Assembly: GCA_905178155.1 (NCBI GenBank)
Contig: CAJINV010000016.1
Location: 434,001 to 498,000, forward strand
Length of the DNA: 64,000 bases
Direction of reading: 5' to 3'
DNA from: Amoebophrya sp. A120
Taxonomy: Eukaryota; Protista; Dinoflagellata
Below, one piece after another: positions 16,195 to 64,000 of this stretch. Under the pieces are notes generated by a model, which was not told the origin of the DNA, made no database searches, and saw nothing but the letters and a program-made list of their open reading frames with translations. The first letter of the stretch is position 1; each line of letters begins with the position of its first letter. A program made the translations under genes and the position numbers.

Positions 16195-18876
16195 TTATCG
16201 AAATAATGACGCTCGGTCTTGACATTCATGTTGACCTTGATCTCGAACCGCTGGTGGAACCCAAGCACTCCGGACATGGACTAACGTAACATCCGAATCA
16301 AAAATCGGACCTAGCGCTCAACAACAAACGTGATTTGACAATGACATACAAATGTGTTCATTTGTTTCTTGTATGTACTAACTTAAGTACTTACTACTTA
16401 CCATCGCTGTTTTTCCGACTGCGGAAAAGACGCTTCACTGTGTTCACGAAGCCGCTTCCCGTCTGTGCTTTATTCTGTCGCAAGGTTTTTTCTTCCACAG
16501 CACCGGAGTTGAGACGCGGCACCGGCGCTGCGAAGCACGACCTCGTGGTTCCTCGCCCGTCCGACCGTCGCCGTTCCGTACTTGCTGGACGCAGGATTTC
16601 CGCCCCGGTGTCGCCTTCAACGTCATCAGCAGTGTCCGACGCCAGATGCGCACTTGACAGATTGGCGAAGTTGTAGTACCGCTTTTTCAACGTCGTCGTC
16701 GTGGATGTGGTTTCATCATTGGTATGCACATCCAGTTCGAACCGATTCGTAAGGTCCGTCATGCTTTTCTTGACGGAGCAGACTATCTGGTCCGCGTCCA
16801 CCCCGCCACGCTGTTGCGGCTGGTGAAACAGCACCGGTGTCGTGATTCTCCGCTTGATGTGCGCATGGCCGTCCTCGACGTCTCGGGAGGCAGTAGAATC
16901 CAGGCAGGATGGTGCAACGGCCGGATCGCCCGTTGCCTGGTCGCCGGAACCACGAGGTGCCGTCGCGCTGTTCTCGTGGGTTACTCCAGTGGAGAATGCG
17001 GGGGGCTGATTGGAAGCTGTCGTAGTCGACCCCAGACCGTTACACGAGCTGGTTGTGGAAGAGGAGGATGATGACTCGTTCTTCCCGTCACCTATCAACT
17101 GCAAATATGTCTGGGTCTGGAGGGTTGCAACGTGTGATGCTGTCCCTGGATTCTAAAAGCATTTGTATTGCATGACCAGCGAGGAGAGATGTCCAGTTTG
17201 TGCTACGCGGGAAGGGCGTTTTTCTCATGCGGAATAGGCAGCGCGAAGCTCTCTGAAAATATCTGATGCGAGGTGATGCATTATAGGCATCGTGGGTCAT
17301 ACAAAATATGCATGACAAACCTTGCGTTCTTCCAGATCCAGACATATTTGCAATGGATATCGTCCGCACTCGCCTTACCTTTCTCTTCCCCCGACGATTT
17401 CGCCGCCCCCGCCGTCCTACTCGCACTGTTGGAAGACCTGATCTCGGAGGTCTTTGCGTTGATCTTGGTTGTTCCTGCGGCAGTGTTATCAATACTGTCA
17501 TCCAGTGGCGCAAAAAACTCGGTGTGTGTCTGAAGAATCTTGTCCGCATAAAGATTCGTCTCCTGCTTACTTGTTGCACTCATCCGCAGCATCCGCTCCC
17601 GCCGCTCCAGCATGTCCGTAGAGGCCGTGCCGCCAGAAATCTTTTTGGTGTTTCGCACGACCTCGTCTGCCCCTTTCTCCTCGTCGATGCAATCGTGCCA
17701 GACCCCGCCACCAAAGGCGGGACCCCCTTTACTAATCACATCCGCGTTCATTTTCCCTTTCTCCGGTGACCGAGAACTAGAGTTCTGCTTTCTTCCAGGG
17801 GGCTTGATGTTGCTCGCCTGTTCTTTGATGTTGTTGGAAGAAGTGGAAGATGAGTTTGTCTGCTCTCCTTTGACGCTGCTGTGGTTCTTGCTGCTACCGA
17901 ACAGGAAATTCGAAGTTTTCGACCGCAGAGAAATTTTCGTGGTCTTCTTCGCCTCCGTGCTCGCAGTTTCCTTCAGTGCAGCCGCGGGAACAAGACGACG
18001 AGTGGCAGAAACTACAGGATCAGCTGCAATTACCGAGGTCGACGTGGAGGTCTTCGTGGTACTATCAGCACTTGCGCTTTCTCCTGCCGAGTTTTTCTGT
18101 TTGATTTTGGTTTGCTGATCTTGTTCCTGGGAAACAGACGAGGTCGAGGTGATCTTGTAGTTGTTCTTTTTCTGTCCGCTTTTGCTGTTGGTTGTAGTTG
18201 ATGCGCCTCCAGCTGCCGCGGCAATGGCCTTCAGATCCACTTGCGCCGACCCGCCCTCCTCGTCGAGTTTTATCAATTGCGCCACCGGGCCTTCCAGGAG
18301 GCTTGCAGCTAGTTGCAGCTGCTTAAGTGCTGCGGAGCGCACGAGTTCGGTAGACTTCGTGCTGTTGGCCAGCTGCGACACGGTGTTCTGCAATACCGAA
18401 AACGCGCGCGTGTAGTTCGCCCAGCCGTCCAGGACGCTGCAGAGCGCTTGAAAAGTGGCGTCCGGGATGTCGTCGCGGGAATTGTTGAGATCCGATTTCG
18501 CATACACAAGCACCTCGCGAATTATTTTTTTCGCTCTTTTCATCTCCTTCCCAGCCACGACGTCTTTTTTCAATTGCTCGATCTCGACCTCCGCGGTATC
18601 CATCCGCTTCTTCACACGGTTGACCTCGCCATCAACACGGTTGATCTCGCCATCTACACTGTCGATCCGGCTCTCCAATTTGCCCTCCACGCGGGTCACT
18701 TCACTCGCCATGTTCTGCTTCAAAATGCCGATCTCGTCTTGGAGGTGCTGCAAGTGGAAGTTGTACACCTCCTCCTGTTTTTTGGTGTCCTGCTTCAGGT
18801 TGACGAGTTGCGCTGCGAGTTCGGACAACGTCGGGGCCCCGGAAGCAGAGGATGTTGGGACGTCACTGTTCATCAA
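16195..18876 (-). CDS. hypothetical coiled-coil/low-complexity protein
   Basis: ORFs 17281-18876 and 16394-17104 join in frame across IE 17093-17359; a probable GT-AG intron 16311-16401 leads to a stop at 16195. True start may lie upstream. Confidence 0.65.
17093..17359. mobile_element. introner element, family A (opposite internal orientation to 4618)
   Basis: Family A TIRs; flanks TCACC/TCGTC diverged; frame restored by removing element +2 or +5 nt. Confidence 0.85.
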
Positions 18877-19297
18877 AACAGGCGCTTTGGAGCTCGATTT
18901 CGACGCCGGGGCACCCGTGGATTGCGTGTCCAGCGTCGATGGCTGCGGGGTGTTGCGTGTGGACGCGTCAAACGCTCGTCGCGCGGATGCAGAGGTGATT
19001 TCATATCAACTACGCTTGCGGGCTGGGACTGACAAGACACGTACTAGTTTGTTAGTAAATTCGTAAATATGTTCGCTATTTTTTCGTCATCTAGTACTCA
19101 TAGAGCGCCCCGCTCTAGTAGTTGTAGTTCTTCTTCTTTGTACGCAGAAACGCATTCAAAAATAAAAGCTGCAGACATGACATCAGAACTCGGTAGTTGA
19201 TACTCCTCACGCATCCGTGGACGAACCCACCAGGTCTGGAAACGTAAACCGCCGGACTTCTTCCTCGCCAAGTAGATGTTACTTGGGTAAGGCCCGC

Positions 19298-26995: not shown

Positions 26996-27307
26996 GACAG
27001 GGTCGTTCTTTCAAAATGCACTGTGCTCAGCGCCGGCGTTTTGATTTTTCTTTTCTCATCACTCAAAAGCAAATCACTTTGCACACACGCACCCTCAGAG
27101 CCCACCTTGCGTCTTCGCTTCTTGCTGCAGCAGAAAGAACAACGGCAATGGACTGCGTGACAGCCGTCGCTTTCAACACTTGGCAACTTCTTTTTCTCCT
27201 CCGCCGCCCTCAGTGGACCACGACGAGAATTCTTGTCATACAAGAGACTACGTACTTACAACATCAAACTACTGTTTGACATGTACCCGCAGAATTTTCA
27301 TTTACTC

Positions 27308-30300
27308 TCAAAGCGCTTTCTGTCTTTTCCCCGCAGGTTCTATATCTATCTGCTGCTTTTCAGCAAGAATCGGAGCAGTAGAAGTCACTTCATTATTTCC
27401 AGTTCCACTACCAACACTCCCTCCACCGTTCGTCCCCGGAGGTGGTTCCGTGACCAGATCCTCGGGTCGCAGCAAATTTTTGTTCGCCGCGGAATCGTAG
27501 GGCTGACTCATGTTCAACAAAAATTTCCGTGCTTCAAACACCGCGGAGTCGGTGGAGAGATTCATGCGGTCCAAGTCCAAGCACGACCGGATCCACTCCG
27601 GGATCTTCTCCCGCTTCCCCGCTTTCCCGTACCGATGGTCGGCGAAGCACATGATCCCGTAATCCTTCTTCGACCTGAGCACCCGTATCAACTGCAAAAA
27701 TGTCTGGGGCTGGAAGATTGCAACTTGTCATGCTGTTTTTGGAGTTTAAAAAAAATTTGTATCGCGTGACCAGCAAGAGGAGTATAGTTTGTGCTACACG
27801 GTCGGACAGGGCATTGCTCATGCGGAAGGTGCATCAGGAAGCCCTCTAAAAGTCTGCGATGCTAAGTCATGCAGTACAGACTATCACGGGTCATGAGAAA
27901 TATGCATGACAAGTCTTGCATTCTTCCAGACTCAGACATTTTTGCATTTGATAACCCTCCCGACGCACTGACTCGCGTGCCGCATCGCGTCGAAGTTGAG
28001 AAATTCCGATTCCTGGATGTCGTAGTGTTCGTTATGCATTGCAAAAGTATCGCACTAGTAGAAATAGCATTACAAATTTTTCCAGAAGGCAAAAGGAAGT
28101 TTGTCATGCTGATTTGGCTAGGAAACAAGATTTGTCATGCATGATTGCAATTAGTACGAGTACGATTCTTTTGCAGAGCATATTCGTGGAGATAATGCAA
28201 TTTCGCCCTGAGCTCGTACGACAACGTGTACTGGAACGGCACCCCGAACAACACCACGCATCTCCCGTAGTGCCGGTCAAAATCGATCCCCTCCGCAACC
28301 TTCCCCCGAGCAATCGACAAAAAAACCGCCCCGCGCCCGCTGTCGCACGCCTGCCGGTAGAGGTTCAGCGCCTGGGTGGTGGCGACCACGTCTTTCGTTT
28401 CTAGAAAAACGAGTTTCTGGTCCATCAGTTTCCCCAGCAAACCGGATTCGTACCAGCGTTCCACGACCAATTCCATGTATCGGTACGATGTGTATCAACT
28501 TCAAAAATGTCTAGGTCTGGAAGAGTGCCAGACTTGTCATGCACATTTTGAATGGCCCGTGAGGTTTGGAATGTAGAACCTAGCATGACAGATTCCGCGA
28601 GGTCTCCATCATGCCTATCCTGCATCAGAAACTGCTTCTCAACTTGGTCCAAAGTGGACAGCCTTTGGTCATCATGCAACACAGATTGTTGCATGGTTCT
28701 GATTTACCATGACAAGTTTTAACTCTTCCAGACCCAGACATTCTTGCAATTCATAGTGTGAAGAAGCACACAATCCCATCCGCGACCGTTTTCGCCAAGG
28801 AGAGCAGCAATTCCCCGTAGTTCCGTGTCACCGCCAAGTTGTCGCGCGCTTCGAAGTTACTGGAAACGGGGACTTGGTCCGGTCCCCTCGTGACGATCAG
28901 TGGGCAAATGCACTGCCTTTCCATGGTCATTTGGAACGACCGCGTGACAATCATGTTCTCCTGCATACCCAGTAGATCCACGTACATGTGCAAGGGTGAG
29001 ATCGTCCCGGAGGTGAGCACCACGGATTGGTACCGTTTCAACACCGGCCGCATCGCCAAGCTGCTGTCCACACAGTATAATAATAACTTCGGATCTTTTA
29101 TCGCCTCGTTCTCCGGGTAGGGGTCGATCAGAATCACGAAACCCTGACTATAAGTCCCTAATAAAGTGGAGAAGTCGCACAATTTGCTGATCGGATTAAA
29201 CTTTTCGAAGTCGTTGATGTTCAAAGTGTTCAGCAATGATTTCAGCCTTTCGTAGAAAAACTTCAACGTCCTCCCGTCGATGTCCAGTCGGTCGTGGATT
29301 TTTTGCAACAAAGACAAAGGTTGGTCAGACGACGCCCGGTCCACGTTCAGGTAAGATTTGAAAAACTGCACCAACTGCTCCAAAATCCGCAGAAACTGTT
29401 CCCCTTTCCGAATATTCCCCGGGACCGCTTTATGAAATGCAAAAATGTCTGGGTCTGGAAGAGTCATGCTGTTTCTGCATGACACAGAAGGTCTGGCATG
29501 GACGCTCTAGCATCACAGGTTTCAAGAAGCTTCCGCAATGCCGAATCCGCATGACAAATCCCCCATTTTGGTGACAGAAAGTGAGCAGCTCTTGCTGCCT
29601 GTGCATCAGAGATTTTTGTGTGTTCTGAAATGCGCATCACAAGTTACATCCTTCCAGACCCAGACATTTTTACACTTGATACGCTTCCTCCCGGATGTCT
29701 TCCGGGATCACCGGGGACTGCTATCCTGTGCAAAAGTATCGTACTCGCATTGCGATCATGCATTACAAATTTAAATTTTTTATTTTTCAGAAAGCAAGTC
29801 CCCATTACAAATTTCATTTCTCATGCTGAGGAAATTTGTAATGCATTTATACGAATACGAGGATACTTTTGCAATTCATAACTGCAGTCGGTCCGCGATG
29901 TCCTCATTCAACCTCCCCGCCGATTGGAGATTCTGCACCAACCTTTGGTACTCCTCCTGCAACCTATTCGCATCCTCATTTTTCACCCGGTTAATTTCGT
30001 TTTTCAGCGTTTGAATGTTCACCTCCGCGCCCTTCAATTTAGCTTCGTTTAACTCCACGGAAAGCGCTTCGGAGCAGATATCGTCGATGTTATGCGCCTC
30101 GTCGAAAACGACGATGGACGGCTCTTTGCTGTTTATCAAATGCAAATATGTCTGGGTCTGGAAGAATGCGGAAGTTTGTCATGGGGATTTTCAATGACCC
30201 ATGAGGTCTGTGATGCATGCCCTAGCATCAGAGACTCTGCGAGGGCTTTCTATCTAATGCTCATACCACATGAGAAATGCCCTCTCCGCGTAGCACAAAT

Positions 30301-32254
30301 TGCGCCTCCTATGCTGTTCATGCAATACAGATTTTATGTAGAGTCCAAAAGTAGCATCACAAGTTTCAACTTTCCAGACCCAGACATTTTTGCAATACAT
30401 ACTGTTCCCGCCGGACTGGTTATTCGCGTTGCTGCTGGCCGCGGCGGCCATTTTGTACCCGATTCTCTCCCCGACACCACCCAGGGTGGAGACTTGCGAA
30501 ACCTTCGGGTCTAGAACGTACTGGTAGTTGAGAACAACGATCTTCGCCTGCTGTAAAAGCTTCCTTGCGGTGTAATACGGGCACCAACCGCCTTTGGAGA
30601 TTTGTTGGGGTTGGGACTGTTGTTGATGGAGGAGGGAAAGAGCGCTCGGGACTGCAGCTCCAGTTGGAGGCTGTGAAGAGGAAGAAGTGCCAGAACTGCT
30701 ACTTGAACTACTTCCCCCGCCGGTTGTCGTCCCCATCTGCGGTTGTATCGCAACGCCGCCCTGCATCACCGGGGAGACTAGACTACTCATGCCGGAGTTG
30801 AACGAACTTGCGGAATTCACAGAGCCGGGAACGGGGGTGAAATTCAAATCAGCTTCCGGTATGGAAAAACTGGATGCACCTTGCGCGCCACTGTTTCCAC
30901 TTCCGCCGAATTTCTGCCGCAGCTCTTTCGCCCGGCTTAACGCCGTGACCCGATTCGCCACAGTCCGTGCTGAACTACTGCTGTTCTTACTTCGGCTCCC
31001 GAACAAATCCTCAATGTCCGCAACCTCCTTCTTCCCCAACTCCGTCAACTCGTCAATCGTATACACATCTGGCTTCACGAACATCTCCCCGTTATCTATC
31101 ACCCTTTGGTACTTCTCGTAGTGCTTGCACTTGCAGCTGATCGCCTCGGTTACGCCGCCTAATCTCTGGAAGATGAAGGGCGAGATCATCCGCCTGCACC
31201 GCGCGTCGACTCGATCTCTGTCCGGATCCGTGGAGATTTCGTGGTGCACGCACATGTTTCGTCGTGCGGATAAGCCTACTCCGAGCACTTTCTCGGATTT
31301 GAACTCCGCGTCTGGTGGGACCAGATTCTTCTCCCTCTTCTCCTCAAATTCCCGTTCTAGAACTTCGTCGCGAAAATCTAAAATCGTCCTTAATTCCAGT
31401 AAAGCTTTGTTCATCTCGGGAATTGTCCGCGTGCAGAAAATTAATTTCCCGACTTTATTTGCGTAGAGCAGTTGGTAGCTGGTGATCAGGGAGAACAATG
31501 CGACGGTTTTCCCCGTGCCGGTGGGCATTTCTAGGATTCCATGTCCGGGGGCGTCGTATTACAATGAAAAATGCCCCCTCCCCATATCAAAGCGGAAATC
31601 TGTGATGCAGATTTGTGGCCACAAATCAGCTTTGTGATGCTAGAAGGCAAGAGATGCGCACTGTAGTGCTGTCTAGCGTGGGAAAGCCTTGCAGCTCCAG
31701 GATGACAGGAGGCAACTGGAAGTGGGAAACAGCATGACAGATTACCTGCAATTTAGGCCGCAACTTCGTCGCTTGGCCTTCTAGCAAAACAAGTTGATTT
31801 GTGTACTCAAATACAGCATCACAAATTCGCGCATCTTCCGTTTCCGATATGGGGTGGGGGCTTTTTTCACTTTGATACGTCGAGACAGTTTTTCAGCTCC
31901 TTCATGTACTCATATTGTTCAGGGTAGACAGCTATCAAATGCAAATATGTCTGGGTCTGGAAGGTTGGAAGACTTGTCATGCAGGTTTTCCATGACGCCT
32001 GAGGTCTGTCATACATGACCCAGCATGACAGATTTTGTCCGACCTCTATCATGCCTCGTCTGCATGAGAAACTCCCTCTCAGCTTGGTCAAAAGTGAGCA
32101 GCTTTTGGCAATCATGCAACACAGATTTTTGCACTATCCAGAATTAAAATGACAAGTTGCATCTTTCCAGAGAGACCCAGATATTTTTGCAATCCATAAC
32201 AGCGTCGTACGGGAAAAACACCCGCAGCTCGTCCAGGTAGAAGGTGAAACCCAT
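27308..32254 (-). CDS. ERCC2: TFIIH DNA helicase XPD/Rad3 (9 exons, all 8 introns are IEs)
   Basis: Spliced product [27 protein letters not shown]...[10 protein letters not shown]...FeS cysteines...WCPYY...[10 protein letters not shown]...EAVPGNIR...LTSGTISP...FFTSY...[10 protein letters not shown]...[29 protein letters not shown]; canonical XPD motifs. Confidence 0.96.
27686..27953. mobile_element. introner element, family A (reverse orientation), XPD intron 8
   Basis: TIRs; repeat ACCCG/ACCCT; restores QCVGRVLRSK. Confidence 0.9.
28033..28182. mobile_element. introner element, family B, XPD intron 7
   Basis: TIRs; repeat TTCGT/TTCGT; restores YLHEHYDIQE. Confidence 0.9.
28493..28755. mobile_element. 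introner element, family A, XPD intron 6
   Basis: TIRs; repeat ATGTG/GTGTG; restores CFFTSYRYM. Confidence 0.9.
29431..29681. mobile_element. introner element, family A, XPD intron 5
   Basis: TIRs; repeat CGCTT/CGCTT; restores EEAVPGNIR. Confidence 0.9.
29722..29880. mobile_element. introner element, family B, XPD intron 4
   Basis: TIRs; repeat ACTGC/ACTGC; restores [10 protein letters not shown]. Confidence 0.9.
30134..30401. mobile_element. introner element, family A, XPD intron 3
   Basis: TIRs; repeat CTGTT/CTGTT; restores [15 protein letters not shown]. Confidence 0.9.
31557..31877. mobile_element. introner element, family C (TIR TATnnnAnTGAAAAAnGCCCCC), XPD intron 2
   Basis: TIRs; repeat CGTCG/CGTCG; restores [19 protein letters not shown]. 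Confidence 0.9.
31933..32198. mobile_element. introner element, family A, XPD intron 1
   Basis: TIRs; repeat ACAGC/ACAGC; restores FPYDAVYPEQ. Confidence 0.9.
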
Positions 32255-49200: not shown

Positions 49201-52200
49201 CGCGGCAGATTGCGCCACGAATGAAAAAGCCGCTGGATAATTCTCGAACTTAAATCCCTCGACACCCGTTCCCGCTTCGTATCCGAATTCAATCAGAAAC
49301 TGCGGCACCACTCTCGCGGTCTCCGTGATTCGCAACAATGCACTATCCCCTGTCGACAACCGGTACGTGTTCCTCGCGCCCACCCCGCTGGTCGTTTTTG
49401 GGGAGAGTTCACTCGGCTCCGCCTCATAAACGTCCTCAAACACGTTAGAGAAGGTCTCGCTGTAAGTCGACGGAGAGTCCTGGCGGAGCCAAGTGGTCGT
49501 GGTCGGGGATGCATTTAATGCTGTCGTTTGAAAGCTGATCCTCTCGCAGAATTTCTGCGCGTTGGACTTCTCTGTTGGTGCACCACTTATGTGATGTTTC
49601 AGATCATTCACAGGAAGAACTACACCGTGCCCCTCCACTGGCTGATCCAGAACAACTCCCGTGGTACAACCAGCAACGATTTCGTTTTCACTCACGGCGT
49701 CACTGATCCCGCTGATCGCTGAGTCTTGTGTCTGTTCCCTGGGCGAGCCATTTTGCCCACTGCTGGTCCCAATGTCGCTTGGGATCACCGGAACTTCGAG
49801 AGACACCAACGGTGGTGCACCAGCGGCCGCGGCTGTGGAAAGAAGTACCGGACTGCTGGCCGTATGATGTGCTGCAGCAAGTGGCGAATTCGGTTTGCTC
49901 TCCAATGATTTCATCTCCTGCGGTTGCAGAGCGGCCAACGAGTCGCGTTTTTTCGCAATGGACACCCGTCTCTTCTCTTGCAGCTTCTCGTTTTGTGCAA
50001 TCACCATGTCTTTGCCGAATTCGATACTGCAAACCAGCACTTGCCCGTCCGGGAAGAGCAACGGCCCGACCTCAGACACGTCCTGCTTGATCACGGTTGA
50101 TTGAGCTGCTGTTGTAGAGGACGCAGCTGAGCTTGGGGAGGATCCAACAACATTATCCGTGTTGACAAGAAATTCCGTCCTATACCGTTTCAAAATCTTG
50201 AGCAACTCGCACCCGAGAAATTCCGGCTTGGTCAAAAAACTTTTCAACCTCGCTCGCTCCACGGTCTGGATGTCGGTGGTCAAGACGACGAAGTGGTCGT
50301 GTAACAGGTTGTGATCAACACAACTTTCGCTTTGCAGATCTGTCTCCTCGTCGTTAGAAGTCTGTATTTTTGATGCAGGTGAGCCGGCAGCAGAACTAGT
50401 ACAACCCGCAGCAGCCGTGCTTGAAGCGAGAAACTTCGCGATTGAGTGTTCGTTCCGGGGGACGAAAAAGAGATACTCTTGGGTCGTGGATGATTTGCCG
50501 TTCGTTCCATCTTTTTTGCTAGACGTGCTTGCAACCGCACCGCCTGCCCCACCAGCACCAACGGCCAAACTGCTATCGACGCCAAATTCCTCCTTGCATC
50601 TCGCCTCTTTAAATCTGTGCAAGATTTTCGTGACGGCTTTTATCCGCACTTTTTCGACGCCGAACTCGCTTAACTCCTCGAGTTTGAATTTCCTGGCAAA
50701 CAGTTCCACGGCAGCTAAGGCCCAAATTGGGTGAGAGCTCGTCAATTTGTGGACGTCGGTTGGGGTGACAGCGTGCTGTAATGTGTTTGATGTTGACTCG
50801 GCTTGTTCTTGAGTGGAAAGATCGGCCGTCTTGGAGGTTTTTGAGTCTCCTGTCGTAGAAGTAGAAGTGTCAACCTCTGGCTGTTTGTTCATCCCAGTAC
50901 CGGAGCTGAATTTAATACTCTGCTTCTCTTTCTCGTCTCGTTTGCTAAACGCGACCCGAGGTGATCCCAGCGAGGAGCCCTGTTGCTGTCCCGGCTCTTT
51001 CAAATTCTTCTTGGAAGAGGTAGTAGATGCGGAATTGGTTCCAGTATTTGTTTTCGGAACAGAAATCTTCAGCTCTAATGACGGCAAAGCGATCCCTTTG
51101 GACCCGTTTTTGTCTACATAAAACCCCCCGGCGCAATTGTACGGGGTGTCACGGAAAGTAGACCCGGCGTTTTTTGTCATGCTGGTGCCGTTAGATGATG
51201 ACGCAGAAGAGGACCTCCACGCGCTCCCGACAAAAACCGGAAACTCGTACCTCTCAAACAGCACATTCCCGGCGGCTTCCTCTTCGAGAGAAGAAAACGC
51301 TTTCAGTATCCTATGTAAAAACGTCCCAAGCCCAGAGTTGTCATGCAAATCTGCACGGTAAAAATGCTTCTCATGCGGAGCCCCATGAGAGGCATTTTTT
51401 AGTTGTGTTTGGCAATTTGTCATGCTCCAATCGGAGTGATGTGCTACATCTGTGATGCTTCTCAACTAGCTAAACAGGATTACACTATGGGACCGGATTT
51501 GTCATGCAGAACTCCCAAAACTTTGGGATTTGTGTTGCAGACTTCTCATCTTGACTATGGTGTGGGGATGTTTTTACACAGGATATTCAGCTGTTGCAGC
51601 AAGGGCTCGATCGTCGTTTCTCGGAACCTCGGAAAAATCGTGGAGACTATCGCTTGGAAATCCTTCTTCCGATTGTGGATGCATTTTTCCAAAACAGTTT
51701 CCGCGAAGTGGATATCCGTCAGCTCCTGGTCATGTGCTTTCATGATACCAGCATCAGAACCAATTTTATTCCGTGAACTGCCCGCGTTATTTCGGGGAGA
51801 AGGTGACGAAGAGCTTGGACCACTTGCAGATGACGATGGTAACTTTTTCGAATCTTCGCTCAGCGCATTTGATATTGGCTTCTTCTCCGCGATAATTCCC
51901 TTTTTGTAAACCTGCAACCGCAACAGTGCCTTTTCCAGCGTTTCGATCCGTTTCCCAAAAATCTCTTTCCACTTCACCTCCAGCTCCGCCTTCAAAAAAT
52001 CCTCGCAAATTTCCGTCGCTAGCCTGTCGAAAAATTTTCGTTTTCCGTGAAAGTAGATCTGCTTGTTAAAGAAGAGCGAGTTGGCCTTTTGGAAATCAAA
52101 ACCATCAACTTCAAAACCGTCGAGCGTTTCCAGTTTCTGCTTGCTATTATGCAGTATGAAGTTCTGATAGTTTTCCATCCGAACAAGTTCGCACCGACCG

Positions 52201-54424
52201 TAATCCGCATCGGAAAATTGGAGCTCACGGAGGGTACTAGAAGAAGAGGAGGATGAGCTATGCTGTTTGTTCGGCTGTTGTTGAAGATGCTGCAGCAGTC
52301 CGGACGGTGTAGAATTTCTTGTGTCGGCGAAACAAGCGAAATTGCCTGCGTCGTCAGAAGTAGATGCGCTGCCATTTATTTTCCCACCGAATGATCCGAA
52401 CAAGTCTTGTTTTATCGCTAGGAAATCCAACACTAGAGGGTTTCCAGACAAATTCAGTTTCTCCAAATTCCCGTTGGAAAAGGAACAACAGTGCTTCCGC
52501 AGTGGTCCTAGATCGTGGAGCAGCGGGTTCAAAGCGACGTTGAGATTTCGCAGATTCGGGAGAACATTCTTCAACTCCAGCCCACGCAAACTCGTCAGCT
52601 TGTTTTCCGAGAGGTTCAGTAGTTTCAATTTTGAGGAAAACTTCCTGATGTTCTTGTGATGGGACGATGATGAAGTCGCCGCGCCGGCTGCGTTCTCTAG
52701 TAGTGTTGCGACTGGCTTCAGATTCGCATAGTTTCGAATGAAAATCACGGTCGACGGCTTGTTGCTATGAAAACCTTGATGTTGTTCCCCACCCGGGTCG
52801 TCTTTTTTCTTCACTAGAACCTTATTCGGATTGTTCGAAGGCTCGTCCTCATCATTGTCGTTGTTTGATTCATTTTGGTCAAAGTCATCTGCGTTGTCAG
52901 GCCGGCTGGAGGATTTTGATTTGGACGACGAAGCGGAAGAACTGACGTGATTCTCGTTGCTAGCATCTTGATCCGCATCTTCGTGGTCGGCCCCACTACT
53001 GCTCCCGTGGTCGTGCTTATCCGAAGAACTTGTTTTCTTTCCCCCTCTAGCTCCTCTCGCTGTCACCGTACTAGCGCTGCTCTTCATGCTATTCCCTTTT
53101 TCCTCTTTCTCTTTCAGCAAAGTCGGCAACATATTGTTCCCCTCCTGCAGCTCTGTTACTTCCAGTTCATAGCTCCTCTCCGCTAACAGGAAATCCGCTA
53201 ATTCCTGGTCTGATCCGAAAAACTGGTGCACGAATTGGTCTAAAAACTGAAACGCGTTCTCGACGCTTTCCAGCAGGTTGCAGCTCAAATTCAGCTATTA
53301 CAGTGAAAAATGCCCCCAACCCCAAAGTTGCAATAATTTGTGACGCTAAAGCGACCGAAACCACTACACAACCTGTAAGGGCACCTTACCGCAATAATTT
53401 GTGATGCGAACTTTCCAAATGAAAACTTTTTGTCATGCATGGAAGGAATATGAATCTTTGTGATGCAGAGTCTAGGCGTATATAGCATTGCTGGCATGAC
53501 AAGCGCCGCTCTTGCTGGGATCTTTTGCAATACAAATTTGCGCTATAATTCACGATTGGAAATCTGTGATGCTGCTAGATGCAAGAAGGCAAATGCTTCT
53601 CTTCGAAAGGTTTGCAATACAAATGCTCGCAAGTTCGGGGGTGGGGGCATTTTTCATTGTAATATCAGCTCCTCGAGGTTTTCGCTCAGGGTGAGGAATT
53701 CGTCGGGAAGGCGGTCGATCCGATTTTCGGACAGATTTAAGCGCTTGAGGTGGGGAAGAGGGGTGTAGAGGGGTTTCACGTTTGTCGTAGTTGATGTAGT
53801 AGCTGGTAGGGACGCTGAAGCAGACGCTGGCGCTGGTCCCGCCCCCGACGTTTTCTGTTCAGTACTATCCTGCTGCTGCTCCGAGGCGAGCGCCGCATTC
53901 TTGGAGTAAAGCCATGGCTGCGGCAGGTCAGCGGGAAGACCTGATTTGCATTTTTGGCAAAAAAAATTGCAAGTAATTCCACAAAATCGAAGGGATATGC
54001 TAGAGTCACTTCTTCATCAACAACATCATTCTAGTCGCGATTTTTACGCTTCATATTTCTTTTTCTTGTCATGGGAGCCAAACATGATAAGTATAAAAAC
54101 CCTACCAGAATCCACCCGCGTCTTTTTCTCCTCAAACACACTCCCCGCGTAGTCGAATAGCATCTGCAAGTGCTCCACCCCAATGTCCTGGTTGATGAGC
54201 GATAAATCGACGAGGAAGTAGCCCAGGTACGGGGCGGACTTCCAGAACAGCAAGTTGCTGGCGATGTCGCCGAGGACCAGTTCCAGTTTCTTGATCGTTT
54301 GCGGTTTGTTGTACACATGGTCCTCGTTGATCCCGAGCGCCTGGGAGCAGAGGTACCGAAACGGGCTGTTCACGTCCAGGTTCTTGGCCCGGTCGGCCTT
54401 CGAAGACTTGGTCGCGGAGGGCAT
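40271..54424 (-). CDS. LRRC9: very large leucine-rich-repeat protein, LRRC9-like (about 4200 aa after splicing)
   Basis: Exons joined across GT-AG intron 53941-54105 and four IEs. Multiple SDS22-type LRR clusters with caps (LSGNPL, YRPYVIFHL, YRATLLTRFPNLRILD). Segments LRELQFSDADYG...NYQNFILH...NKQIYF, EAAGNVLFE and FGVEKVRIKAVTKI resemble LRRC9; recognised from memory, not by search. Confidence 0.7.
43713..43968. mobile_element. introner element, family A (inverse of the 62241 subfamily)
   Basis: TIRs; repeat CCAGC/CCAGC; restores the LRR LQRLDAKNNKISDL. Confidence 0.9.
44647..44910. mobile_element. introner element, family A (inverse of the 28493/31933 subfamily)
   Basis: TIRs; repeat AAATG/AAATA; frame restored. 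Confidence 0.88.
51307..51585. mobile_element. introner element, family D
   Basis: TIRs; repeat TTCAG/TTCAG; restores LQQLKAFSS. Confidence 0.9.
53296..53664. mobile_element. introner element, family C
   Basis: TIR TATTACA(G/A)TGAAAAATGCCCCCA; repeat TCAGC/TCAGC; restores the LRR LEELNLSCNLLES. Confidence 0.9.
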
Positions 54425-54559
54425 GGTAATATTAGCGGTGAGAATTATGCGAGGACGCTCTCTCAGCGGTCTGATTTCTTCTTTCTGGATGCACGGAGAA
54501 ACGCGAACGCCTTCGCTTTCTCTCCCAATCCCTCGCTCACTGAATCAGATCATCGAGAA

Positions 54560-56000: not shown

Positions 56001-56667
56001 CCTACCTCCTCACACACAAACCCACGGCAAAGACCATCAACAGAAACGAAGGGAGGGCGATGGCCTCCAAGTGCTACTCACATATCAGACCAGAACACTT
56101 ACTCCAAGACCGCCCAGCTCAGTCTCGTTGTCATCGCGAGGTCTTTCCATGAGGGAAGCCTCGTCGAGATTCAATTTGATCAGCACCAAACCAGGATCGC
56201 TTCTTGTCTTCAGCGTGCGCCGTGGCCACAATTGGCCCGCGACGTTCGAATATTGCATTTCAGAGTTGTCTCGATAAGGTTAATATCTTCACGGTACTTC
56301 TCATCGTCCGTCTGTTCTCAAGCACATTTAGGATAAGGTTGTAAAACTTGTTGTTCGTTGTTGTAAATCAGGATAAGGTTGTTCTCTTCGGGTTCGCATT
56401 TCAAATCTCGACGTCGAGCCAGATTTTAGTTTGTTTCGCTTTCAAACGATATAAACGTAGTCTCGGTGAAATAATTGTACATCTCCACCCTCAAACAATG
56501 GAGTCAAAAAAGCTTTACAGAGTGGCTAAATTGTACAGAAGCGGAAAGTGAAACTCATTCTCACTCTCAACAATAGCATATTGGCATTTGGAGTATACTT
56601 CAATCAATATTCAAGTCCAAACACGAAGACTCTCTCAGCTGTCTTTTCCGCGCAACCACCTCTATTT

Positions 56668-59600
56668 CTACTTCTCCCTCGTTTTACTCCCGCCGAGCAA
56701 ATCCGACAGGCTGTCCGTTGTCGTTCGTCCGATGTCCTTCCGCCTCGGACTCAGGATCGTAAACTCGTCCGGCGGCACCGCCCGCCCCGCGTCCGAATTC
56801 TTCGTCTGGATCAAATGCAAGTTTTCCCCGCCGAGGAATATCCTGGAGACGTCCACTTTCTCCATGCTGTTCTTCGGCAATTCCTTGCGGCTCCGGCTCG
56901 GCGTCGAGCTGGTGTTTGTGGTCTGCATCATCTGCTGCTGCACTACGTTTTGCGCAATGGAAGTTGGTCTGGTGTGCACCCGTGACCCCGGCGTGGAGGA
57001 CATTTGCGGAACTCCTGCGGAAAATTTGGAGGAATTGGTCCCCGCGGAAAGCAACTGCCTCCCGGAAGTAGGATGGGACCCCATCATGATCCCGCCAGTA
57101 GAGCCCATCGGCACGATGGGCGCGTGCCCGAGGAAGTTGTTTGCGGTGTTTGGGGTAGTTGATGAAAAGTTATTATTGCCGTTCATCATCATGCCATGCG
57201 GTGCTCCATGAGACATAGATGGACCACCACTTCCGCCGTACTGGTTCATTTTCACCGGCGTTCCGGTCGACCTCCCGCGGTGGCTCAGCGCGTGTCCGGA
57301 CATCACGGGCTCGGAGTTCGTCCTTGGTAAATTCCCCCCGACAACTCCCGGCAGCAGCGGCTTCCGCAGCATCGCCCCGATCGGGCCGACGCGCGTTTTC
57401 TCCGTGACAGTGTGTTCTTTCTGGAATAAATCGATCTTGCTTTCCACCAGTTTGTCGTGGCACTGCGCCGGAATCTCTTTCAGAAAGGGCACGTGGTCGA
57501 AGGGGGTGCCCTCCCTTGCCGCATCGACAGTCGCCCGGACCATCATTTCCACGGAGTTTTTGTCCGTGTCGCCGGACTTCGATTTGCCGGTTGATTGGGA
57601 CAGCTGGTTCTTGAACTCCGCCAGGGGGTCGGTGCTGCACTCTAGCCGGATCGGCTCCCAGAGGTCCATATCCTGTGCAAAAGTATCGCACTCGTAGTAA
57701 TTGCAACCATGCATTACAAATCTTGCTCTTAAGGTAAATCTACATTTACAAATTTTCTCTCTCATGCTGAGGAAATTTGTAATGCATTTATACGAGTACG
57801 ATACTTTTGCAATACATAGTCTATCATGTTGGTGAGCATCTCCGGGCCGGCTTCGGTCCGCCACTTCGGCCTCTTTTTCCTCTGCGCCGCGGGGGATTGG
57901 GCATCCGTGGCGGCTTCGGACGGGCCGCCCGGGCTGCTGTCAGCGCCGGGGGAGGTTTGGCCTTGGGAATCATCGCCGGGGGAATCTGGATTGGATTTCG
58001 AGTTGATGATGTTGGATTTATCATGGATGGCTGCAAGTGCAGACAAGTCAAAAAATCAACATTGACATTCTCATTCTGATTCTGCATCACTCAGGAACGA
58101 AAAGACTTCAACTACTTGCTTCAATACCGTATGCATACATATCCTCATCGGCTTCGCTCGCATACGGGCTTGGACTACTCCCCCTTGAGCTCGGCCGGTC
58201 CTCCTTCTTCTTTTTTCTTTCCGCTTTCCCCACGAGAAGCTTCGCCGCGTTCATCAAGTAGCACCTTAGCCTCGTTTCCTGCAGCTCTTTATGGATTGCA
58301 AAAGTGTCTGGGTCTGGAAGATTTCTAGATTATTTGTCATGCATATTTTCCATGACCGACGATGTCTGTGATGCATGCTGTAGCATCACAGAGTTTCAGA
58401 GCGCTCTGTGATACCTCTACCGCATGAGAAACGCCCTCTCCGCGTCGCACAAACTGGAGTCCTCTTGCTGGTCATGCAATACAAATTTTTTCAGAATCCA
58501 GAGACAGCATTACAAGTTTAGAATGTTCCAGACCCAGACATTTTTGCATTTGATACTCTTCCACGACTTGCTTCGGCGTTTTCTTGATCCTTTGCTGCTT
58601 CTTCTCCGCCATGATAGCTGTATTTTTACGCAATATGAAGATATGAAGTACGGTCGGAGTAACAAGCATGTGTCATGCATAGAATATGAATCCATGGACT
58701 TGTCTCTTCATACATATTCGTCATGCGGTGAAGATGAAAAACAAAAATCACAACCAAACATACCTTGCACACTGTTTTTCTTCGCGCTAACCCGCTGGAA
58801 TTCCTTGCTTGGCACGTCGATTTTGCATTGCACAAAATGGATTCTGCATTCCTGCAGACGCGGATTGCACAAAATCGATTTTGCATTGCACAAAACCGAA
58901 TCCCGCAAAATCGATTTTGCATTGCACAAAATCGATCTTGCATTGCACAAAATCGATTTTGCACTGCACAAAATCGACCCCCGCGCCAGCCGAGACCCTG
59001 TTCCTGGCGCCTCTACGGAGCTCAGAACACGCAGACGGGGCCCATGCCGCTCCCGCGGCTTTTCAGAACTTGGGCCCGGATGTAAGTCACAAGCTCGGGC
59101 GTTTTTCATTGGTTTCTACGCTGGGCCAACGCGATGAATGTGCGGAACTTCATCGGGGCGCAAGTTCTGGAATTCGCGATCATCCCTAAGCCTGTAGCTT
59201 GCGAGCGAAACATCGATCCAAGGCGGGCAGAGGCCCGTCCTCTGCGACTTCGCCCCACGCAATCAATTTTGCAGCTTTTGCCGGGTTTTCCGGCTTTTGT
59301 GTTGGAGGTAAAATCGATTTTGCGACCACGCGCGGATTGTGTGGCCCCGCCCGAGGATCGATAGGGCATCTTCGAAAAGCGTGCCCGAAGGGTGCGCACA
59401 AAATCGAGTCTGTCCGCGGGTACTCACAAAATCGATTTTGTGAGCACCGCCCGCCGGGCGGAACATGACAACCCGGCGCCCCCAACCCGGCTGCGGGAAT
59501 CTTTCTGGCATCCCGGACGCTCCAGGGTGGGGCCTAACGCCTCAGGACACCGGCAAAAACTGCCGCGAGACCGAGTTGGCGCATTCTCGAGCTTCGAGAA

Positions 59601-62600
59601 CGCGGGCAACCGACTTCGTTTCGCGCTACTTTGCTTCGCTTGTGGACGTTAGCAGCCGCGGCACAAAGTCGATTTTTTGCGGCGTGCCTGGATTTTTTGC
59701 GGATTTTTTTCCGATTTTCTTAACATTTTTGAAGTCGGTCCAAATCAGTACTAACACATACCTTGCACACTGTTTTTCTTCGCACTAATATCCAAGAAAA
59801 AAACGTTGTTAGTGTAAATTTGTGATGCGCAACATGCAAGATGATTGCGTCTGTCATGCTTGGCATGCATCATAGGGCCCATTCAGTGGCGTTTTCCCGT
59901 GCTATCTGCGCATGACAGGTTTTTGCTTTCATGCGAGAGATATTTGTCATGCTAATCCTCCAAGAAAGTTACACCTACAAGGTTTTTTTCTTGGATAACT
60001 AACCCGCTGGAATTCCTTGCTTGGCACGTCGATTTTCGCAAAGGCGAATTCAAACACGCCCGAGAAAATTCGCAGCCCGTATTTCTCGGTGAGCCAGCCG
60101 TTAAGTTTATCTATCGTCTCCTCCATCAACTCTTCCCTCTCGTTGTTTTTCATGTAAAAATGCGTTTCCGGTATTTCCCCCAAGTGCTCCAGTGGCTCGT
60201 GCTTCTTCTTCGGCCCGGTGTGCATCTCCGGGGGCGGGGCTCCGGCGGCCGCGGGCGCTGCGGCGGGGGCCGCCTCGGCGGCCTTCGGGGAGCCGTGCGG
60301 CTGCTGGTGTTGACTTTTCGTGGGGGTGGAGGGTGCGTCCGCGTGTTTTGCCGCGGCTCCACCGGGGGTTTTGATTGCCGGGGGTGGGGACTGGGTGGAG
60401 GCACGCTGGTGTGTTGGTGTGTTTGGGAAGTAGTCCTCACGGAGTCGTTGTCAACATGAGCGTGTAAGAATGCAATTGCAAAGTCATGTTGAAGATAGAG
60501 GACAAACAAGAACCACTCTCGCAGAATATTCATGGATTATGACCTCCAGAAGATGATCTTCTTTCCTACTTAGCATAAAAAGACGAAAAAAAAATCTAAT
60601 ATACCTCCTTGCTACTCCCCGCATGATTTTGATTCCCAGCACCAGCCGTCGAGCTTTTCGACCCTCCGTGCTGTTCGCTGCCCATTATCTTCACTGATTT
60701 CTCCTTCGACCCCGGGGATTCCGGGCTTGACTCCAGCACCGGTTTTGCCTTTCTTTTCCCCTTCTTCCCGTACCGTTCTGGAGACAAGGATCGCTGCAAC
60801 GCCCGAATTCTCGTAGCTTCTTCTTCGTGGAAATAAATCTTTCCGTCGTCGTACTGCTCGGCGACGACGACGTGGGCCTCCGGGAAGAAGCCCTTCATGA
60901 GCTCTAAGTCAGGCGACAAGTGCGGTGACGTTAAAGGGTCGTACGGTGGTGGTGTTTGGAGCAGCGGTGAGTGATGTCCAGCACCTCCGTGTTTGTCCTT
61001 GGACGGGCTGGCGTGCTCTTTTGAGGATTATCCTGTGTAAAAACGTCCCCACACCATAGCTGTCATGCAAATCTGCATGCCAAAAAAATTTCTCATGCGG
61101 AGCCCCATGAGAAGCATTTTCTAGTCGTGTTTTAGAATTTCTCATGCTATAATCAGCATGATGTGGTAGATCTGTGATGCTGCTGAACTACCTACTTAAA
61201 TACGATTACAATACGAAGCCAGTTTTGTCATGCGAAACAACCAAAGCTGGCTGATTTGTATAGCAGATTTCCCATTTTGACTCTGGTGTGAGGACGTTTC
61301 TACATAGGATACGGATCCGTGTTTGTTCTCGTCGTGCTTGTCTTTATCTGCAGCTTTGTCTTTGTTTTGTTCCCCAGCTCCTGCGGCACCCTTTTCTGGG
61401 CTTTTGTCACCCGCGGCTTTGTCCTTCGATTTCTGCTTTTTTTCCTTCTTCGCCGCAGCCGCAGCTGGAGGTTCTTCCTCCTCATCTTGCTGTTTTGCTT
61501 TGTCAAAGGGCAGTGGAACTGGGCGTTTTGGACCTGATATGAATTTTTTTCGCATTGATTTGTATCCCGTGAATTGCATCGAAAGCACTGATTGTCATGC
61601 ATACATCCTTTATCAAAAATTCAACAACAGCAACTTGTAAATTGAAAATATACTCAACGGCCTCGCCGGTACCGGGTCGTAGACGACCTTATCCTTTTTC
61701 GGACTTCTCGCCCGCATTTTCGTTTTCAGCGCGATCAGCTTCTCATTGTAGTTGTACGTCACAAACTGCAGCGACTGCGGCGTCTGGTGCATCCCGGCGA
61801 AGGGTAAAATCTGTACTGCTTGGATGTCCAAAAACTCCTGCCGGTTCGGCTTCCGCAAGACGCAGAACATCCTTACTTCCCGATCTGACCACAGGCGCAC
61901 GGTTCCGTCCTTGTACTGTATTCTAAGCTATCAACTGCAAATACGTCTGTGTCTGGAAGATTTGTCATGTACATTTTGTATGATCCATGATGCCTGTAAT
62001 GCATGATCTAGCATCACAGATTTTTAGACGGCTTCCTAATGCCTACTCCGCATGAGAAATGCCCTCTCCCCGTAACACAAACTGGACTCCTGTTGCTGGC
62101 CATGCATATACAGATTTTTTTGGAATCCAACGGCAGCATTACAAGTTGCAACCTTCCAGACCCAGAAATATTTGCAATGCATATCAGCATCTCCATCGAC
62201 TCGTCATACGGGTTCACGGCCGTCGAGACCGCGTGCGGGCTATGAAATGCAAATATGCCTGGGTCTGGAAGGTTGGAACTTGTAGTGCTAGCTTTGCATA
62301 CCCAGGAAATCTGTATTGCATAACCAACAAAAGTCGCAGCCTCTTTTGTACATGCAAAGCCGCAGCTTCTCATGCGGGTTTCCTATGAGAAAGCGTTCTG
62401 AAAAGTTGTCATGCTGTGTTGCATTCGCAACTGTTGCAATCATCCACATTTTAGCATCACAAGTTTCCGCACCCAGACATATTTGCATTTGATACGGGCC
62501 CGGTTGCTGCGCCCCGGGCGGTGCTTTCAACTCCAGATTCATCTGTCGCGGTACGATCCCGCGCTTATTGGTATACGCGTGCTTGATGAACTGTTTTTGC

Positions 62601-63986
62601 GCGTGCACCATCGCCAGCCCGTTCGGCCCTTCCGGTGCGTTCGGCGGTAAGTAGACCGTGATCCCCTCCATTTCCCCGCAGTAGTGCTCGCCCTCTTTCC
62701 CCGGAACTAGGAAGTACCGGTAGGGGTTTAGGACTAACCGCGGGTTCAGATTTTGGATCATCGCCTGGTGCAACTCTTCATCAAATGCAAAAATGTCTGG
62801 GTCTGGAAGAATCTGAGACTTGTCATGCACAGTTTGCATGAGCCATGATGTCTGTGATGCATGCCCTAGCATCACAGGTTTATTGAGGGACTCATGATGC
62901 CTATTCCGCACGACAAATGCCCTGTCCGCGTAGCAAAAATTAGATTCCTTTTGCTGCTCATGCAACACAAATTTTTTAGACATCCAAATGCAGCATCACA
63001 AGTTGCATTCTTCCAGACCCAGACACTTTTGCATTTGATATTCTTCATCCGACATCAGCGCCTCCTTCACCATGCCCTGGATCAATTTCTCGAAACTCGA
63101 CTGTTTCCTTCGCAACATATTGCGAGGAAAAATCCCCCCTCCCCATAATGGACATTTGTGATGCTGGATTTGTGTACACAAATCGACTTGTCTTGCTAGA
63201 AGGCCAAGAGACGCAGTTGCGGCCTAAATTGTAGACGGTTTGTTATGCTGTTTCCCACTTGCAGTGGCCTCCTGTGATGCTGAAGATGCAAGGTTTTCCC
63301 ACGTCAGCGAGCACTACAGTCCGTGTCCGCATCTTTTGCCTTCTAGCATGACAACATGATTTGTGGAAGCAAATCATGCTACACAAGTCGCCGTTTTAGG
63401 ATGAGGAGGGGGGATCGGGATTTTTCATTTTGATACAACACCAGCGCTCGTCGCAGAAAATCCCGAACGATGGTGATCAACTCGGAACTGGATCGGAGCT
63501 TCACCAAAGCGGTCAACGTCCGTTGTAACAGCTTCGCGTTTGGATTCGCTTCGTCGTTGGCGCAAACTTCCGATTCTATATCAAATGCAGAAGTGTCTGG
63601 GTCTGGAATAAACTTGTGATGCTAAGTGGCGTAGCATGGGGAGGCCACAAGTGCTGGCTCAGCATGACAAATTTCATCTGAGCTACTAGGTGTTGCCTAT
63701 TCTGCATGACAAACTGCGTCTCCGCATGACAGAAAAGCGCGGCTCTTGGGCAACGTGCATGACAGATTTAAGAGTCATGCCAGACAAGCATGACAAACGT
63801 GCATTCTTCCAGACCCAGACATTTTTACATTTGATATTCTAGTTGCTTCTTCAACTCCTTCTTTTTCTTCGCCGCTTCCTTCTTTTTCTCCTGCTCATCG
63901 GAGGTGGTTGTGGAAACGCCAGACGATTTCATCTTCACAGTGGATTCCGTCCCAGATTGCCCCGCGGAGGAGACGTCTTCGTCCAT
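56668..63986 (-). CDS. hypothetical protein, 14 exons (9 IE introns, 4 GT-AG introns)
   Basis: One continuous frame from MDEDVSSAGQ (63986; true start may lie beyond the window) to the stop at 56668 after removing nine IEs and GT-AG introns 61534-61653, 60406-60604, 58618-59761 and 58031-58127. No domain recognised. Confidence 0.75.
57669..57818. mobile_element. introner element, family B
   Basis: TIRs; repeat GTCCA/GTCTA; frame restored. Confidence 0.88.
58290..58555. mobile_element. introner element, family A
   Basis: TIRs; repeat CTCTT/CTCTT; restores QVVEELQETR. Confidence 0.9.
58758..58824. repeat. 67-bp duplicate of an exon end plus splice donor, lacking the family E element
   Basis: Matches 59756-60036 once the 209-bp element and one ACTAA are removed, with 1 synonymous mismatch. 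Confidence 0.9.
58825..59755. repeat. GC-rich intronic insertion with a 21-bp tandem repeat and dispersed AAAATCGATTTT palindromes
   Basis: About 6 copies of GCATTGCACAAAATCGATTTT at 58825-58978; further palindromes near 59310, 59428 and 59665. Confidence 0.8.
59789..59997. mobile_element. introner element, family E (TIR TATCCAAGAAAAAAAC)
   Basis: 16-bp perfect TIR; repeat ACTAA/ACTAA; empty-site copy at 58758-58824. Confidence 0.9.
61029..61311. mobile_element. introner element, family D
   Basis: TIRs; repeat AGGAT/CGGAT; frame restored. Confidence 0.88.
61929..62183. mobile_element. introner element, family A
   Basis: TIRs; repeat TAAGC/TCAGC; frame restored (EMLRIQYK). Confidence 0.88.
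62241..62494. mobile_element. introner element, family A
   Basis: TIRs; repeat CGGGC/CGGGC; frame restored. Confidence 0.9.
62779..63040. mobile_element. introner element, family A
   Basis: TIRs (left end CAT instead of TAT); repeat CTCTT/TTCTT; frame restored. Confidence 0.88.
63118..63435. mobile_element. introner element, family C (inverse of 31557)
   Basis: TIRs; repeat CAACA/CAACA; frame restored. Confidence 0.9.
63579..63836. mobile_element. introner element, family A
   Basis: TIRs; repeat TTCTA/TTCTA; frame restored. Confidence 0.9.
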
Positions 63987-64000
63987 GTTGCACGTGAGAA

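What the first reader, a model, noticed from the sequence alone, without database searches (positions are those of the whole stretch)
17093..63435. The same element works as an intron in either orientation
Seen: all host genes are minus-strand, yet family members occur as reverse complements of each other: A 4618/38362 vs 17093/27686; A 28493/31933 vs 44647; A 43713 vs 62241; C 31557 vs 63118; D 37533 vs 37911/51307. Known: spliceosomal introns are polar (5' site, branch point, 3' site). Inference: recognition relies on symmetric features (TIR stem, paired motifs), pointing to structure-guided splicing or a non-spliceosomal or DNA-level process.
Basis: partly seen in the sequence, partly recalled or inferred. 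Interest (0 to 1): 0.8.

Follow-up and report, generated by a model that had tools for sequence, protein, structure and literature searches.

The report
Two-way transposon introns of Amoebophrya
Small transposon-like inserts sit both ways round in this marine algal parasite's genes, and spliced transcript contigs lack copies of both orientations although none has normal splice signals; the inserts are already published, and their mirror-image ends likely give the splicing machinery the same signals either way.

Summary
The window is Amoebophrya sp. A120 DNA with 29 inverted-repeat elements matching the published introners (Farhat 2021).

All nine named opposite-orientation pairs align far better as reverse complements. 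Spliced contigs lack copies of both orientations: one contig skips nine elements, including forward and reverse family A, and another fits removal of both opposed D copies. None of 29 can be GT/GC-AG.

The inference holds only in part. DNA-like contigs keep the elements. Inverted repeats present the same linear ends either way, so two-way splicing does not imply structure-guided or non-spliceosomal removal. Two-way introners are published for Polarella and Aureococcus, with ordinary splice sites.

Nine imperfect duplications fit only one fixed cut: one base before the element, four after. This puts TAT at +2 to +4, as in native GTAT donors. The mirror cut for reverse copies is excluded by one annotated protein only. 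A relaxed spliceosome is likely but untested. The scan reported this class and cut before on other pieces of this genome.

The parts
4618..4883 (+). Family A element, majority orientation; perfect 5-nt duplication. Strand in these rows = orientation against the family reference; all hosts are minus-strand
   Evidence: frame restored by element+5 nt; no RNA test
4930..5085 (-). Family B element
   Evidence: no RNA test
17093..17359 (-). Family A element, reverse orientation; duplication differs at two places
27686..27953 (-). Family A element, reverse orientation, in XPD
   Evidence: X4 contig piece stops at 27680 with 30 letters left and the next contig computes to begin at 27954; skipped in P0001
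28033..28182 (-). Family B element in XPD
   Evidence: contig length arithmetic, start coordinate only; skipped in P0001
28493..28755 (+). Family A element in XPD; cut at least 1 nt before the element
   Evidence: contig piece starts at 28757; cut 0 would change conserved Ser737
29431..29681 (+). Family A element in XPD
   Evidence: contig arithmetic exact; P0001
29722..29880 (+). Family B element in XPD, opposite to 28033
   Evidence: contig arithmetic exact; P0001
30134..30401 (+). Family A element in XPD
   Evidence: contig arithmetic exact; P0001
31557..31877 (+). Family C element in XPD
   Evidence: skipped in P0001; not among the displayed contig pieces
31933..32198 (+). Family A element in XPD
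   Evidence: skipped in P0001; not among the displayed contig pieces
36034..36290 (+). Family A element in UPF1 (orientation weakly assigned, 42 vs 26; same as 63579)
   Evidence: contig gap 268 = expected 268
36688..36954 (+). Family A element in UPF1
   Evidence: contig gap 39 = expected 39
37533..37811 (+). Family D element in UPF1
   Evidence: contig gap 258 = expected 258 only if both D copies are removed (542 or 545 otherwise); P0122
37911..38192 (-). Family D element in UPF1, opposite to 37533; transcript start G-TAA
   Evidence: same contig; P0122 limits the cut to at most 2 nt before the element
38362..38626 (+). Family A reference element in UPF1
   Evidence: same contig
43713..43968 (+). 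Family A element in the 4,184-codon frame; reverse complement of 62241
   Evidence: frame continuity; no contig shown bridging it
44647..44910 (-). Family A element, reverse orientation
   Evidence: joint 44640>44910, one X2 contig, depth 2.8
51307..51585 (-). Family D element
   Evidence: frame continuity; no RNA cover
53296..53664 (.). Element with C-type ends and unrelated interior
   Evidence: no RNA cover
57669..57818 (+). Family B element; cut at most 3 nt before
   Evidence: direct joint in 4 of 4 runs
58290..58555 (+). Family A element
   Evidence: direct joint in 3 of 4 runs, one sample
59789..59997 (.).
   Evidence: direct joint; scan
61029..61311 (-). Family D element; cut at least 1 nt before
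   Evidence: direct joint
61929..62183 (+). Family A element; cut at most 1 nt before
   Evidence: direct joint
62241..62494 (-). Family A element, reverse orientation, 52-nt exon away from forward copy 61929
   Evidence: direct joint in the same contig
62779..63040 (+). Family A element; cut at least 1 nt before
   Evidence: direct joint
63118..63435 (-). Family C element, opposite to 31557
   Evidence: direct joint
63579..63836 (+). Family A element
   Evidence: direct joint
58745..58830 (+). Duplicate of the exons around 59789 without the element and with one copy of the 5-mer (empty site)
27311..32254 (-). Host gene XPD/ERCC2 helicase, 986 aa, eight elements, no ordinary intron
34193..39320 (-). 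Host gene UPF1, 1,061 aa, five elements and four GT-AG introns
56175..64000 (-). Host gene of unknown family running off the window; nine elements and five GT-AG introns skipped in one contig
   Evidence: no Pfam match for three exon pieces

Best explanation
These are the published introner elements of Amoebophrya A120, likely non-autonomous DNA transposons; they sit in either orientation between 5-base duplications, spliced contigs lack the element plus one duplication copy both ways round, and a relaxed spliceosome likely does the cutting by reading the element's mirror-image ends. Shown: both orientations occur; both are missing from spliced contigs; no GT/GC-AG exists; each transcript shows TAT-N7-AAA at the 5' end and TTT-N7-ATA at the 3' end whichever way the element lies. 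Inferred: (1) insertion by a transposase acting on DNA, blind to the direction of transcription; (2) one fixed cut, 1 nt before and 4 nt after the element, set by transcript direction; (3) the 5' cut treats N-UAU as the native G-UAU donor with the first base freed; (4) the 3' cut is measured from the element's end, by sequence or hairpin, with no AG; (5) catalysis by the U2/U6 spliceosome.
For: Ten direct joints and exact arithmetic for eleven more elements. 0 of 29 canonical at any cut. End positions 1-3 and 11-13 are conserved in 28-29 of 29 at both transcript ends. Only cut 1+4 meets all nine limits from imperfect duplications; a cut drawn at random per element would meet them with chance 0.03. 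Under that cut every element has T at +2. All 9 ordinary donors read start GTA, six of them GTAT (seven; two more read). All 9 predominant A120 non-canonical ends in Farhat Table S4 have T at +2. Elements and GT-AG introns are removed in the same contigs. A120 keeps U2, U4, U5, U6 and 83 of 89 spliceosomal proteins, with U1 undetected (PMC7789003 section 10). An empty site holds one copy of the 5-mer. XPD is collinear with relative P0005 at 8 of 8 sites.
Against: No lariat, branch point or inhibition data were obtainable, so step 5 is untested. G at +1 is in only 12 of 29 (p 0.066), and AG falls at the 3' cut in 2 of 29. For reverse family-A copies the limits are loose (at most 3, 4, 4), and the mirror cut is excluded only by one public annotated protein, not by reads I laid. 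Table S4 ends depend on the authors' mapper and on ambiguous junctions. Direct joints come from one study and almost all from one sample. Contigs show presence, not efficiency. The paper found no transposase in A120 (section 16). XPD alignments to other relatives show gaps near some sites: 1 of 8 in P0002 and P0008; P0003 is partial.
Confidence: 0.6

Rival explanations
1. A separate, structure-guided pathway (euglenid-like) removes the elements: the inverted repeats pair, and an endonuclease-ligase or second complex cuts at fixed distances from the stem base.
For: The ends are predicted to pair with mean probability 0.45-0.99 on the transcript strand in 28 of 29, in both orientations. There is no AG and no fixed first base. 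U1 is undetected. Euglenid non-conventional introns are released as circles (PMC11282704 section 6). Farhat et al. themselves propose hairpin joining of exon boundaries.
Against: The predicted pairing is as strong on the non-transcribed strand, as any inverted repeat gives. G-U versus A-C mismatches are unbiased, 20:16. Element 63118 has no predicted pairing in the exact end-to-end register yet is skipped (shifted pairing not examined). The cut aligns TAT with native donors.
Confidence: 0.27
2. Both orientations are spliced, but one less well, so orientation matters quantitatively.
For: Family A is 13:4 (two-sided p 0.049; 12:4, p 0.077, without the weak call). Orientation bias is reported for all two-way Polarella classes.
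Against: Forward and reverse copies are skipped within the same single contig. Families B, C and D are 2:2, 1:1 and 1:3. The sample is small, and insertion bias would give the same skew. This rival is compatible with the best explanation.
Confidence: 0.25
3. The elements are excised from DNA before transcription.
For: They look like DNA transposons. One empty-site duplicate exists. 617 joints were not displayed, and contigs drop rare variants.
Against: 8 of 8 displayed X5 DNA-like contigs enter the elements at all 15 flanks reached, though X5 may be the assembly's own source. None of the 15 displayed joints skips one element cleanly. Contigs lacking elements also lack GT-AG introns. The asymmetric cut appears to follow transcript direction.
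Confidence: 0.03
4. Each orientation uses hidden canonical GT/GC-AG sites.
For: 12 of 29 begin GT under the 1+4 cut.
Against: 0 of 29 give GT/GC..AG at any of six cuts or any equivalent slide within 20 nt, and ten joints show removal of exactly element plus 5 nt.
Confidence: 0.02

Closest known systems
Introner elements of Amoebophrya sp. A120 (Farhat et al. 2021, PMC7789003; read: abstract, passages, sections 10, 11, 12, 16, 25, supplement passages; figures not seen)
   Same: Same organism label at 100% identity for three host proteins; repeat motif TAT + 7 + AAA; 5-nt direct repeats; non-canonical ends; similar length.
   Different: Nothing in kind. In the text I saw, the paper calls splice positions variable and does not address element orientation ('strand' 0 hits; the three of four 'orientation' hits shown concern gene order; supplement). 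The two-way removal and the single cut are added detail.
Two-way introner-like elements of Polarella glacialis and Aureococcus anophagefferens (Roy et al., 10.1101/2020.10.14.339549, passages only; Huff et al. 2016 not read, cited there)
   Same: [quoted passage not shown]
   Different: Those use GT/GC/GA donors and AG acceptors carried in the element or taken from the duplication; here 0 of 29 can be GT/GC-AG and the duplication sequence is free.
Euglenid non-conventional introns (via review PMC11282704 section 6)
   Same: Inverted repeats, duplication-like junction repeats, no GT-AG, probable MITE origin.
   Different: Reported as circular after excision and removed after conventional introns; neither is testable here. 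The end motifs differ.
Fritillaria borealis non-canonical introns (via the same review; original not read)
   Same: MITE-derived non-canonical introns handled by an adapted U2 spliceosome: the model for the best explanation.
   Different: Dominant AG-AC/AG-AT ends; here only the T at +2 is fixed.

Membership tests
Amoebophrya A120 introner elements | Host organism A120 | tested here: met
   Exon queries 100% identical to proteins named Amoebophrya sp. A120
Amoebophrya A120 introner elements | Inverted repeat starting TAT, seven loose bases, three or more A | tested here: met
   28-29 of 29 at each fixed position against section 11
Amoebophrya A120 introner elements | Direct repeat of 3-5 nt at the boundaries | tested here: met
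   20 of 29 perfect 5-mers, 7 with one and 2 with two differences
Amoebophrya A120 introner elements | Removed from RNA without GT-AG | tested here: met
   10 direct joints, 11 by arithmetic; 0 of 29 canonical
Amoebophrya A120 introner elements | Repeated in families | tested here: met
   27 of 29 fall in four families in the window; many 95-99% alike contigs in X5
Two-way spliceosomal introners (Polarella/Aureococcus type) | Intron made in either orientation | tested here: met
Two-way spliceosomal introners (Polarella/Aureococcus type) | Ordinary donor and AG acceptor from element or duplication | tested here: not met
   works like them in orientation, but is not a member
U2-type spliceosomal intron | Lariat with branch point; dependence on U2/U6 | not testable with these tools
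   raw-read runs X8 and X9 held 3 and 0 reads of the stretch
MITE (non-autonomous TIR DNA transposon) | Terminal inverted repeats, target duplication, no coding capacity, empty site | tested here: met
   elements are 150-369 nt
MITE (non-autonomous TIR DNA transposon) | Cognate transposase and superfamily | not testable with these tools
   no genome held; the paper found none in A120
Euglenid-type non-conventional introns | Excised as circles, structure-dependent | not testable with these tools
   indirect only: pairing predicted, no wobble bias

The most novel reading that the evidence does not exclude
A120 runs a splicing mode that needs neither G at the donor nor AG at the acceptor: it finds the base of the transposon's terminal hairpin and cuts 1 nt before and 4 nt after it. 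Any of thousands of insertions, either way round and at any target sequence, would then be removed seamlessly by a dedicated structure-measuring factor or a non-spliceosomal enzyme.
Probability: 0.27. Interest if true: 0.8.

Novelty: already known. Interest (0 to 1): 0.4.

Why it matters
How Amoebophrya removes more than 60% of its introns without GT-AG is an open question in the paper that described them. Two-way removal with one transcript-polar cut confines the signals to the terminal repeat and predicts exact junctions. That makes the question testable by lariat sequencing and minigenes, and it would explain how these elements spread through coding sequence without changing proteins. The elements, the hairpin idea and two-way introners in other algae are already in print, which limits the surprise.

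Tried and rejected
No whole genome is held, so no genome-wide tally was made. No RNA holder was listed as such; X1-X4 are flagged as RNA by guess, and I treat them as spliced RNA because they skip GT-AG introns. There was no contig cover over 51307 and 53296, and 4618, 4930 and 17093 lay outside both laid stretches. tables were crowded by X5 (617 joints and 20,313 pieces not shown), so evidence there is arithmetic on displayed pieces. Searches used wrong ends for 4618; these were corrected. The frame test favoured 5 nt for 24 of 29 elements; the five exceptions lie near a start codon or an ordinary intron and are settled by contigs or P0001. The wobble-bias test for RNA pairing was negative. 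G enrichment at +1 was not significant. The paired internal 8-mers occur 2-6 times per element on both strands, but also 30 times outside elements; no role was shown. Rejected: orientation as an artefact of palindromic ends (interiors tested alone); hidden canonical sites; DNA excision. Literature searches found no statement of two-way splicing or a fixed cut for Amoebophrya. Subscription papers, figures, bioRxiv supplements and 2 of 14 supplement files of PMC12130899 were not seen and may hold one. PMC11453091 was seen only as a search listing.
Full report
What is there. A self-comparison and a motif scan find 29 elements of 150-369 nt, 7,408 nt in all. They are bounded by TAT-N7-AAA and its reverse complement and flanked by 5-nt direct repeats: 20 perfect, 7 with one and 2 with two differences. 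Ten block shuffles give 0-2 scan hits against 34. Exons of three host genes are 100% identical to proteins named Amoebophrya sp. A120; two are XPD and UPF1. Farhat et al. 2021 (PMC7789003) describe A120 introner repeats as TAT, seven loose bases and three or more A, with 3-5 nt direct repeats (section 11). These are those elements.

The observation. The tally is A 13:4, B 2:2, C 1:1, D 1:3, with two singletons. All hosts are on the minus strand; for the gene around 4618 and 4930 this rests on frame length alone.

Are both orientations removed? Over 44300-64000, one 4.7-kb contig in each of runs X1-X3 (one sample) skips all nine elements of the 56-64 kb gene and five GT-AG introns. These include forward A copies 58290, 61929, 62779, 63579, reverse A copy 62241, and C 63118, D 61029 and B 57669. 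One low-depth X2 contig skips reverse A 44647. That is 10 of 12 elements in the stretch; 51307 and 53296 had no cover. Over 27300-45100 the joint table was crowded out, but record coordinates of X4 contigs fit removal exactly: gaps of 268, 39 and 258 nt in UPF1, the last possible only if both opposed D copies are out (542 or 545 otherwise). They also fit removal of six elements in XPD, among them reverse A 27686 and the opposed B pair. In all, 21 of 29 have contig support (10 direct, 11 by arithmetic); 17093, 31557 and 31933 are skipped in public annotated proteins; 5 have frame evidence only. Removing the eight XPD elements plus 5 nt each gives a protein identical to P0001. Contigs cannot show efficiency, and the raw-read runs held almost none of this organism.

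Hidden canonical sites. None of 29 gives GT/GC..AG at any position in the duplication or any equivalent slide.

DNA-level removal. All 8 displayed DNA-like X5 contigs continue 22-82 nt into the elements at the 15 flanks they reach. X5 may be the assembly's source and most rows were hidden, but the element-free contigs also lack ordinary introns. A duplicate at 58745-58830 lacks element 59789 and holds one copy of the 5-mer while keeping the neighbouring intron end. I read this as an empty site predating insertion.

Where the cut falls. Nine imperfect duplications limit the number of duplication bases taken before the element. At least 1: 28493, 61029, 62779. At most 1: 61929. At most 2: 37911. 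At most 3: 57669, 17093. At most 4: 27686, 44647. Only 1+4 fits all; random cuts would fit with chance 0.03. I took the 1+4 lead from earlier scan notes and tested it here. If the cut followed the element rather than the transcript, reverse A copies would be cut 4+1. Element 17093 excludes this, through an Asp rather than a Gly in annotated protein P0121; the other two reverse copies do not discriminate. That annotation was built from transcript alignments (section 25), but it is one case and not my own read evidence.

Mechanism. Under 1+4 each intron begins N-TAT (one N-TAA). All nine ordinary donors read begin GTA, six of them GTAT. The nine predominant A120 non-canonical ends in the paper's Table S4 all have T at +2. 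The paper finds most of the spliceosome but no U1. An inverted repeat shows the same linear ends both ways, so a polar machine reading only the ends is orientation-blind without needing structure. I favour a relaxed U2-type spliceosome (0.6). Against it: no lariat data, G at +1 only 12 of 29 (p 0.066), and nothing AG-like at the 3' cut. For a hairpin-guided pathway (0.27): the ends are predicted to pair in 28 of 29. But they pair as well on the other strand, wobble pairs are unbiased (20:16), and 63118 is skipped without predicted in-register pairing. Family A's 13:4 skew is borderline.

Comparison and novelty. Introners that create introns in either orientation are described for Polarella and Aureococcus, using ordinary splice sites (10.1101/2020.10.14.339549, passages), and a wide survey already allowed for opposite-orientation copies (PMC9860276, passages). 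A120 introners are classed partly as TIR DNA transposons (PMC12130899, passages and supplement search). Euglenid and Fritillaria parallels come from a review (PMC11282704, passages and section 6). Seven searches found no explicit statement of two-way splicing or a fixed cut for Amoebophrya, within the library's limits. Earlier, unreviewed notes of this scan report both on other pieces of this genome; none lay near this window.

Verdict. Interest 0.4, for the testable cut rule.

Noticed in passing
window 58745-58830: Duplicate of an intron end plus the two exons flanking element 59789, lacking the element and with a single copy of the 5-mer: an empty site inside a 1,144-nt GT-AG intron.
   Followed up: yes
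window about 19274-20899 and 18954-19247: Annotated protein P0121 implies two further non-GT-AG introns (1,626 and 294 nt) without the usual element ends. The shorter starts T-TAC and the longer can be placed to start T-TAT, which would hint that the relaxed donor works without a hairpin. Annotation only; not checked with RNA.
   Followed up: partly
window 19298-20880 and 19962-20406: Two nested long inverted-repeat elements of a different kind inside the 1,626-nt annotated intron.
   Followed up: partly
window about 6958-10478: Tandem array of about 17 units of 203 bp, central units 99% identical.
   Followed up: no
window about 40.2-53.9 kb, minus strand: 4,184-codon open frame after removing four elements, with a weak leucine-rich-repeat match; almost no contig cover in the runs laid.
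   Followed up: partly
window 37911-38192: One end is changed so that the transcript intron would start G-TAA, a native donor type.
   Followed up: partly
window 24824-25447 and 25903-26581: Two related GC-rich repeats of about 650 bp between genes; similar GC-rich DNA at about 54.6-56 kb.
   Followed up: no
ordinary introns, e.g. 35630-35762, 36997-37134, 61534-61653: The 8-mer motifs that recur inside the elements also occur in some GT-AG introns; possibly decayed elements or a shared binding motif.
   Followed up: no
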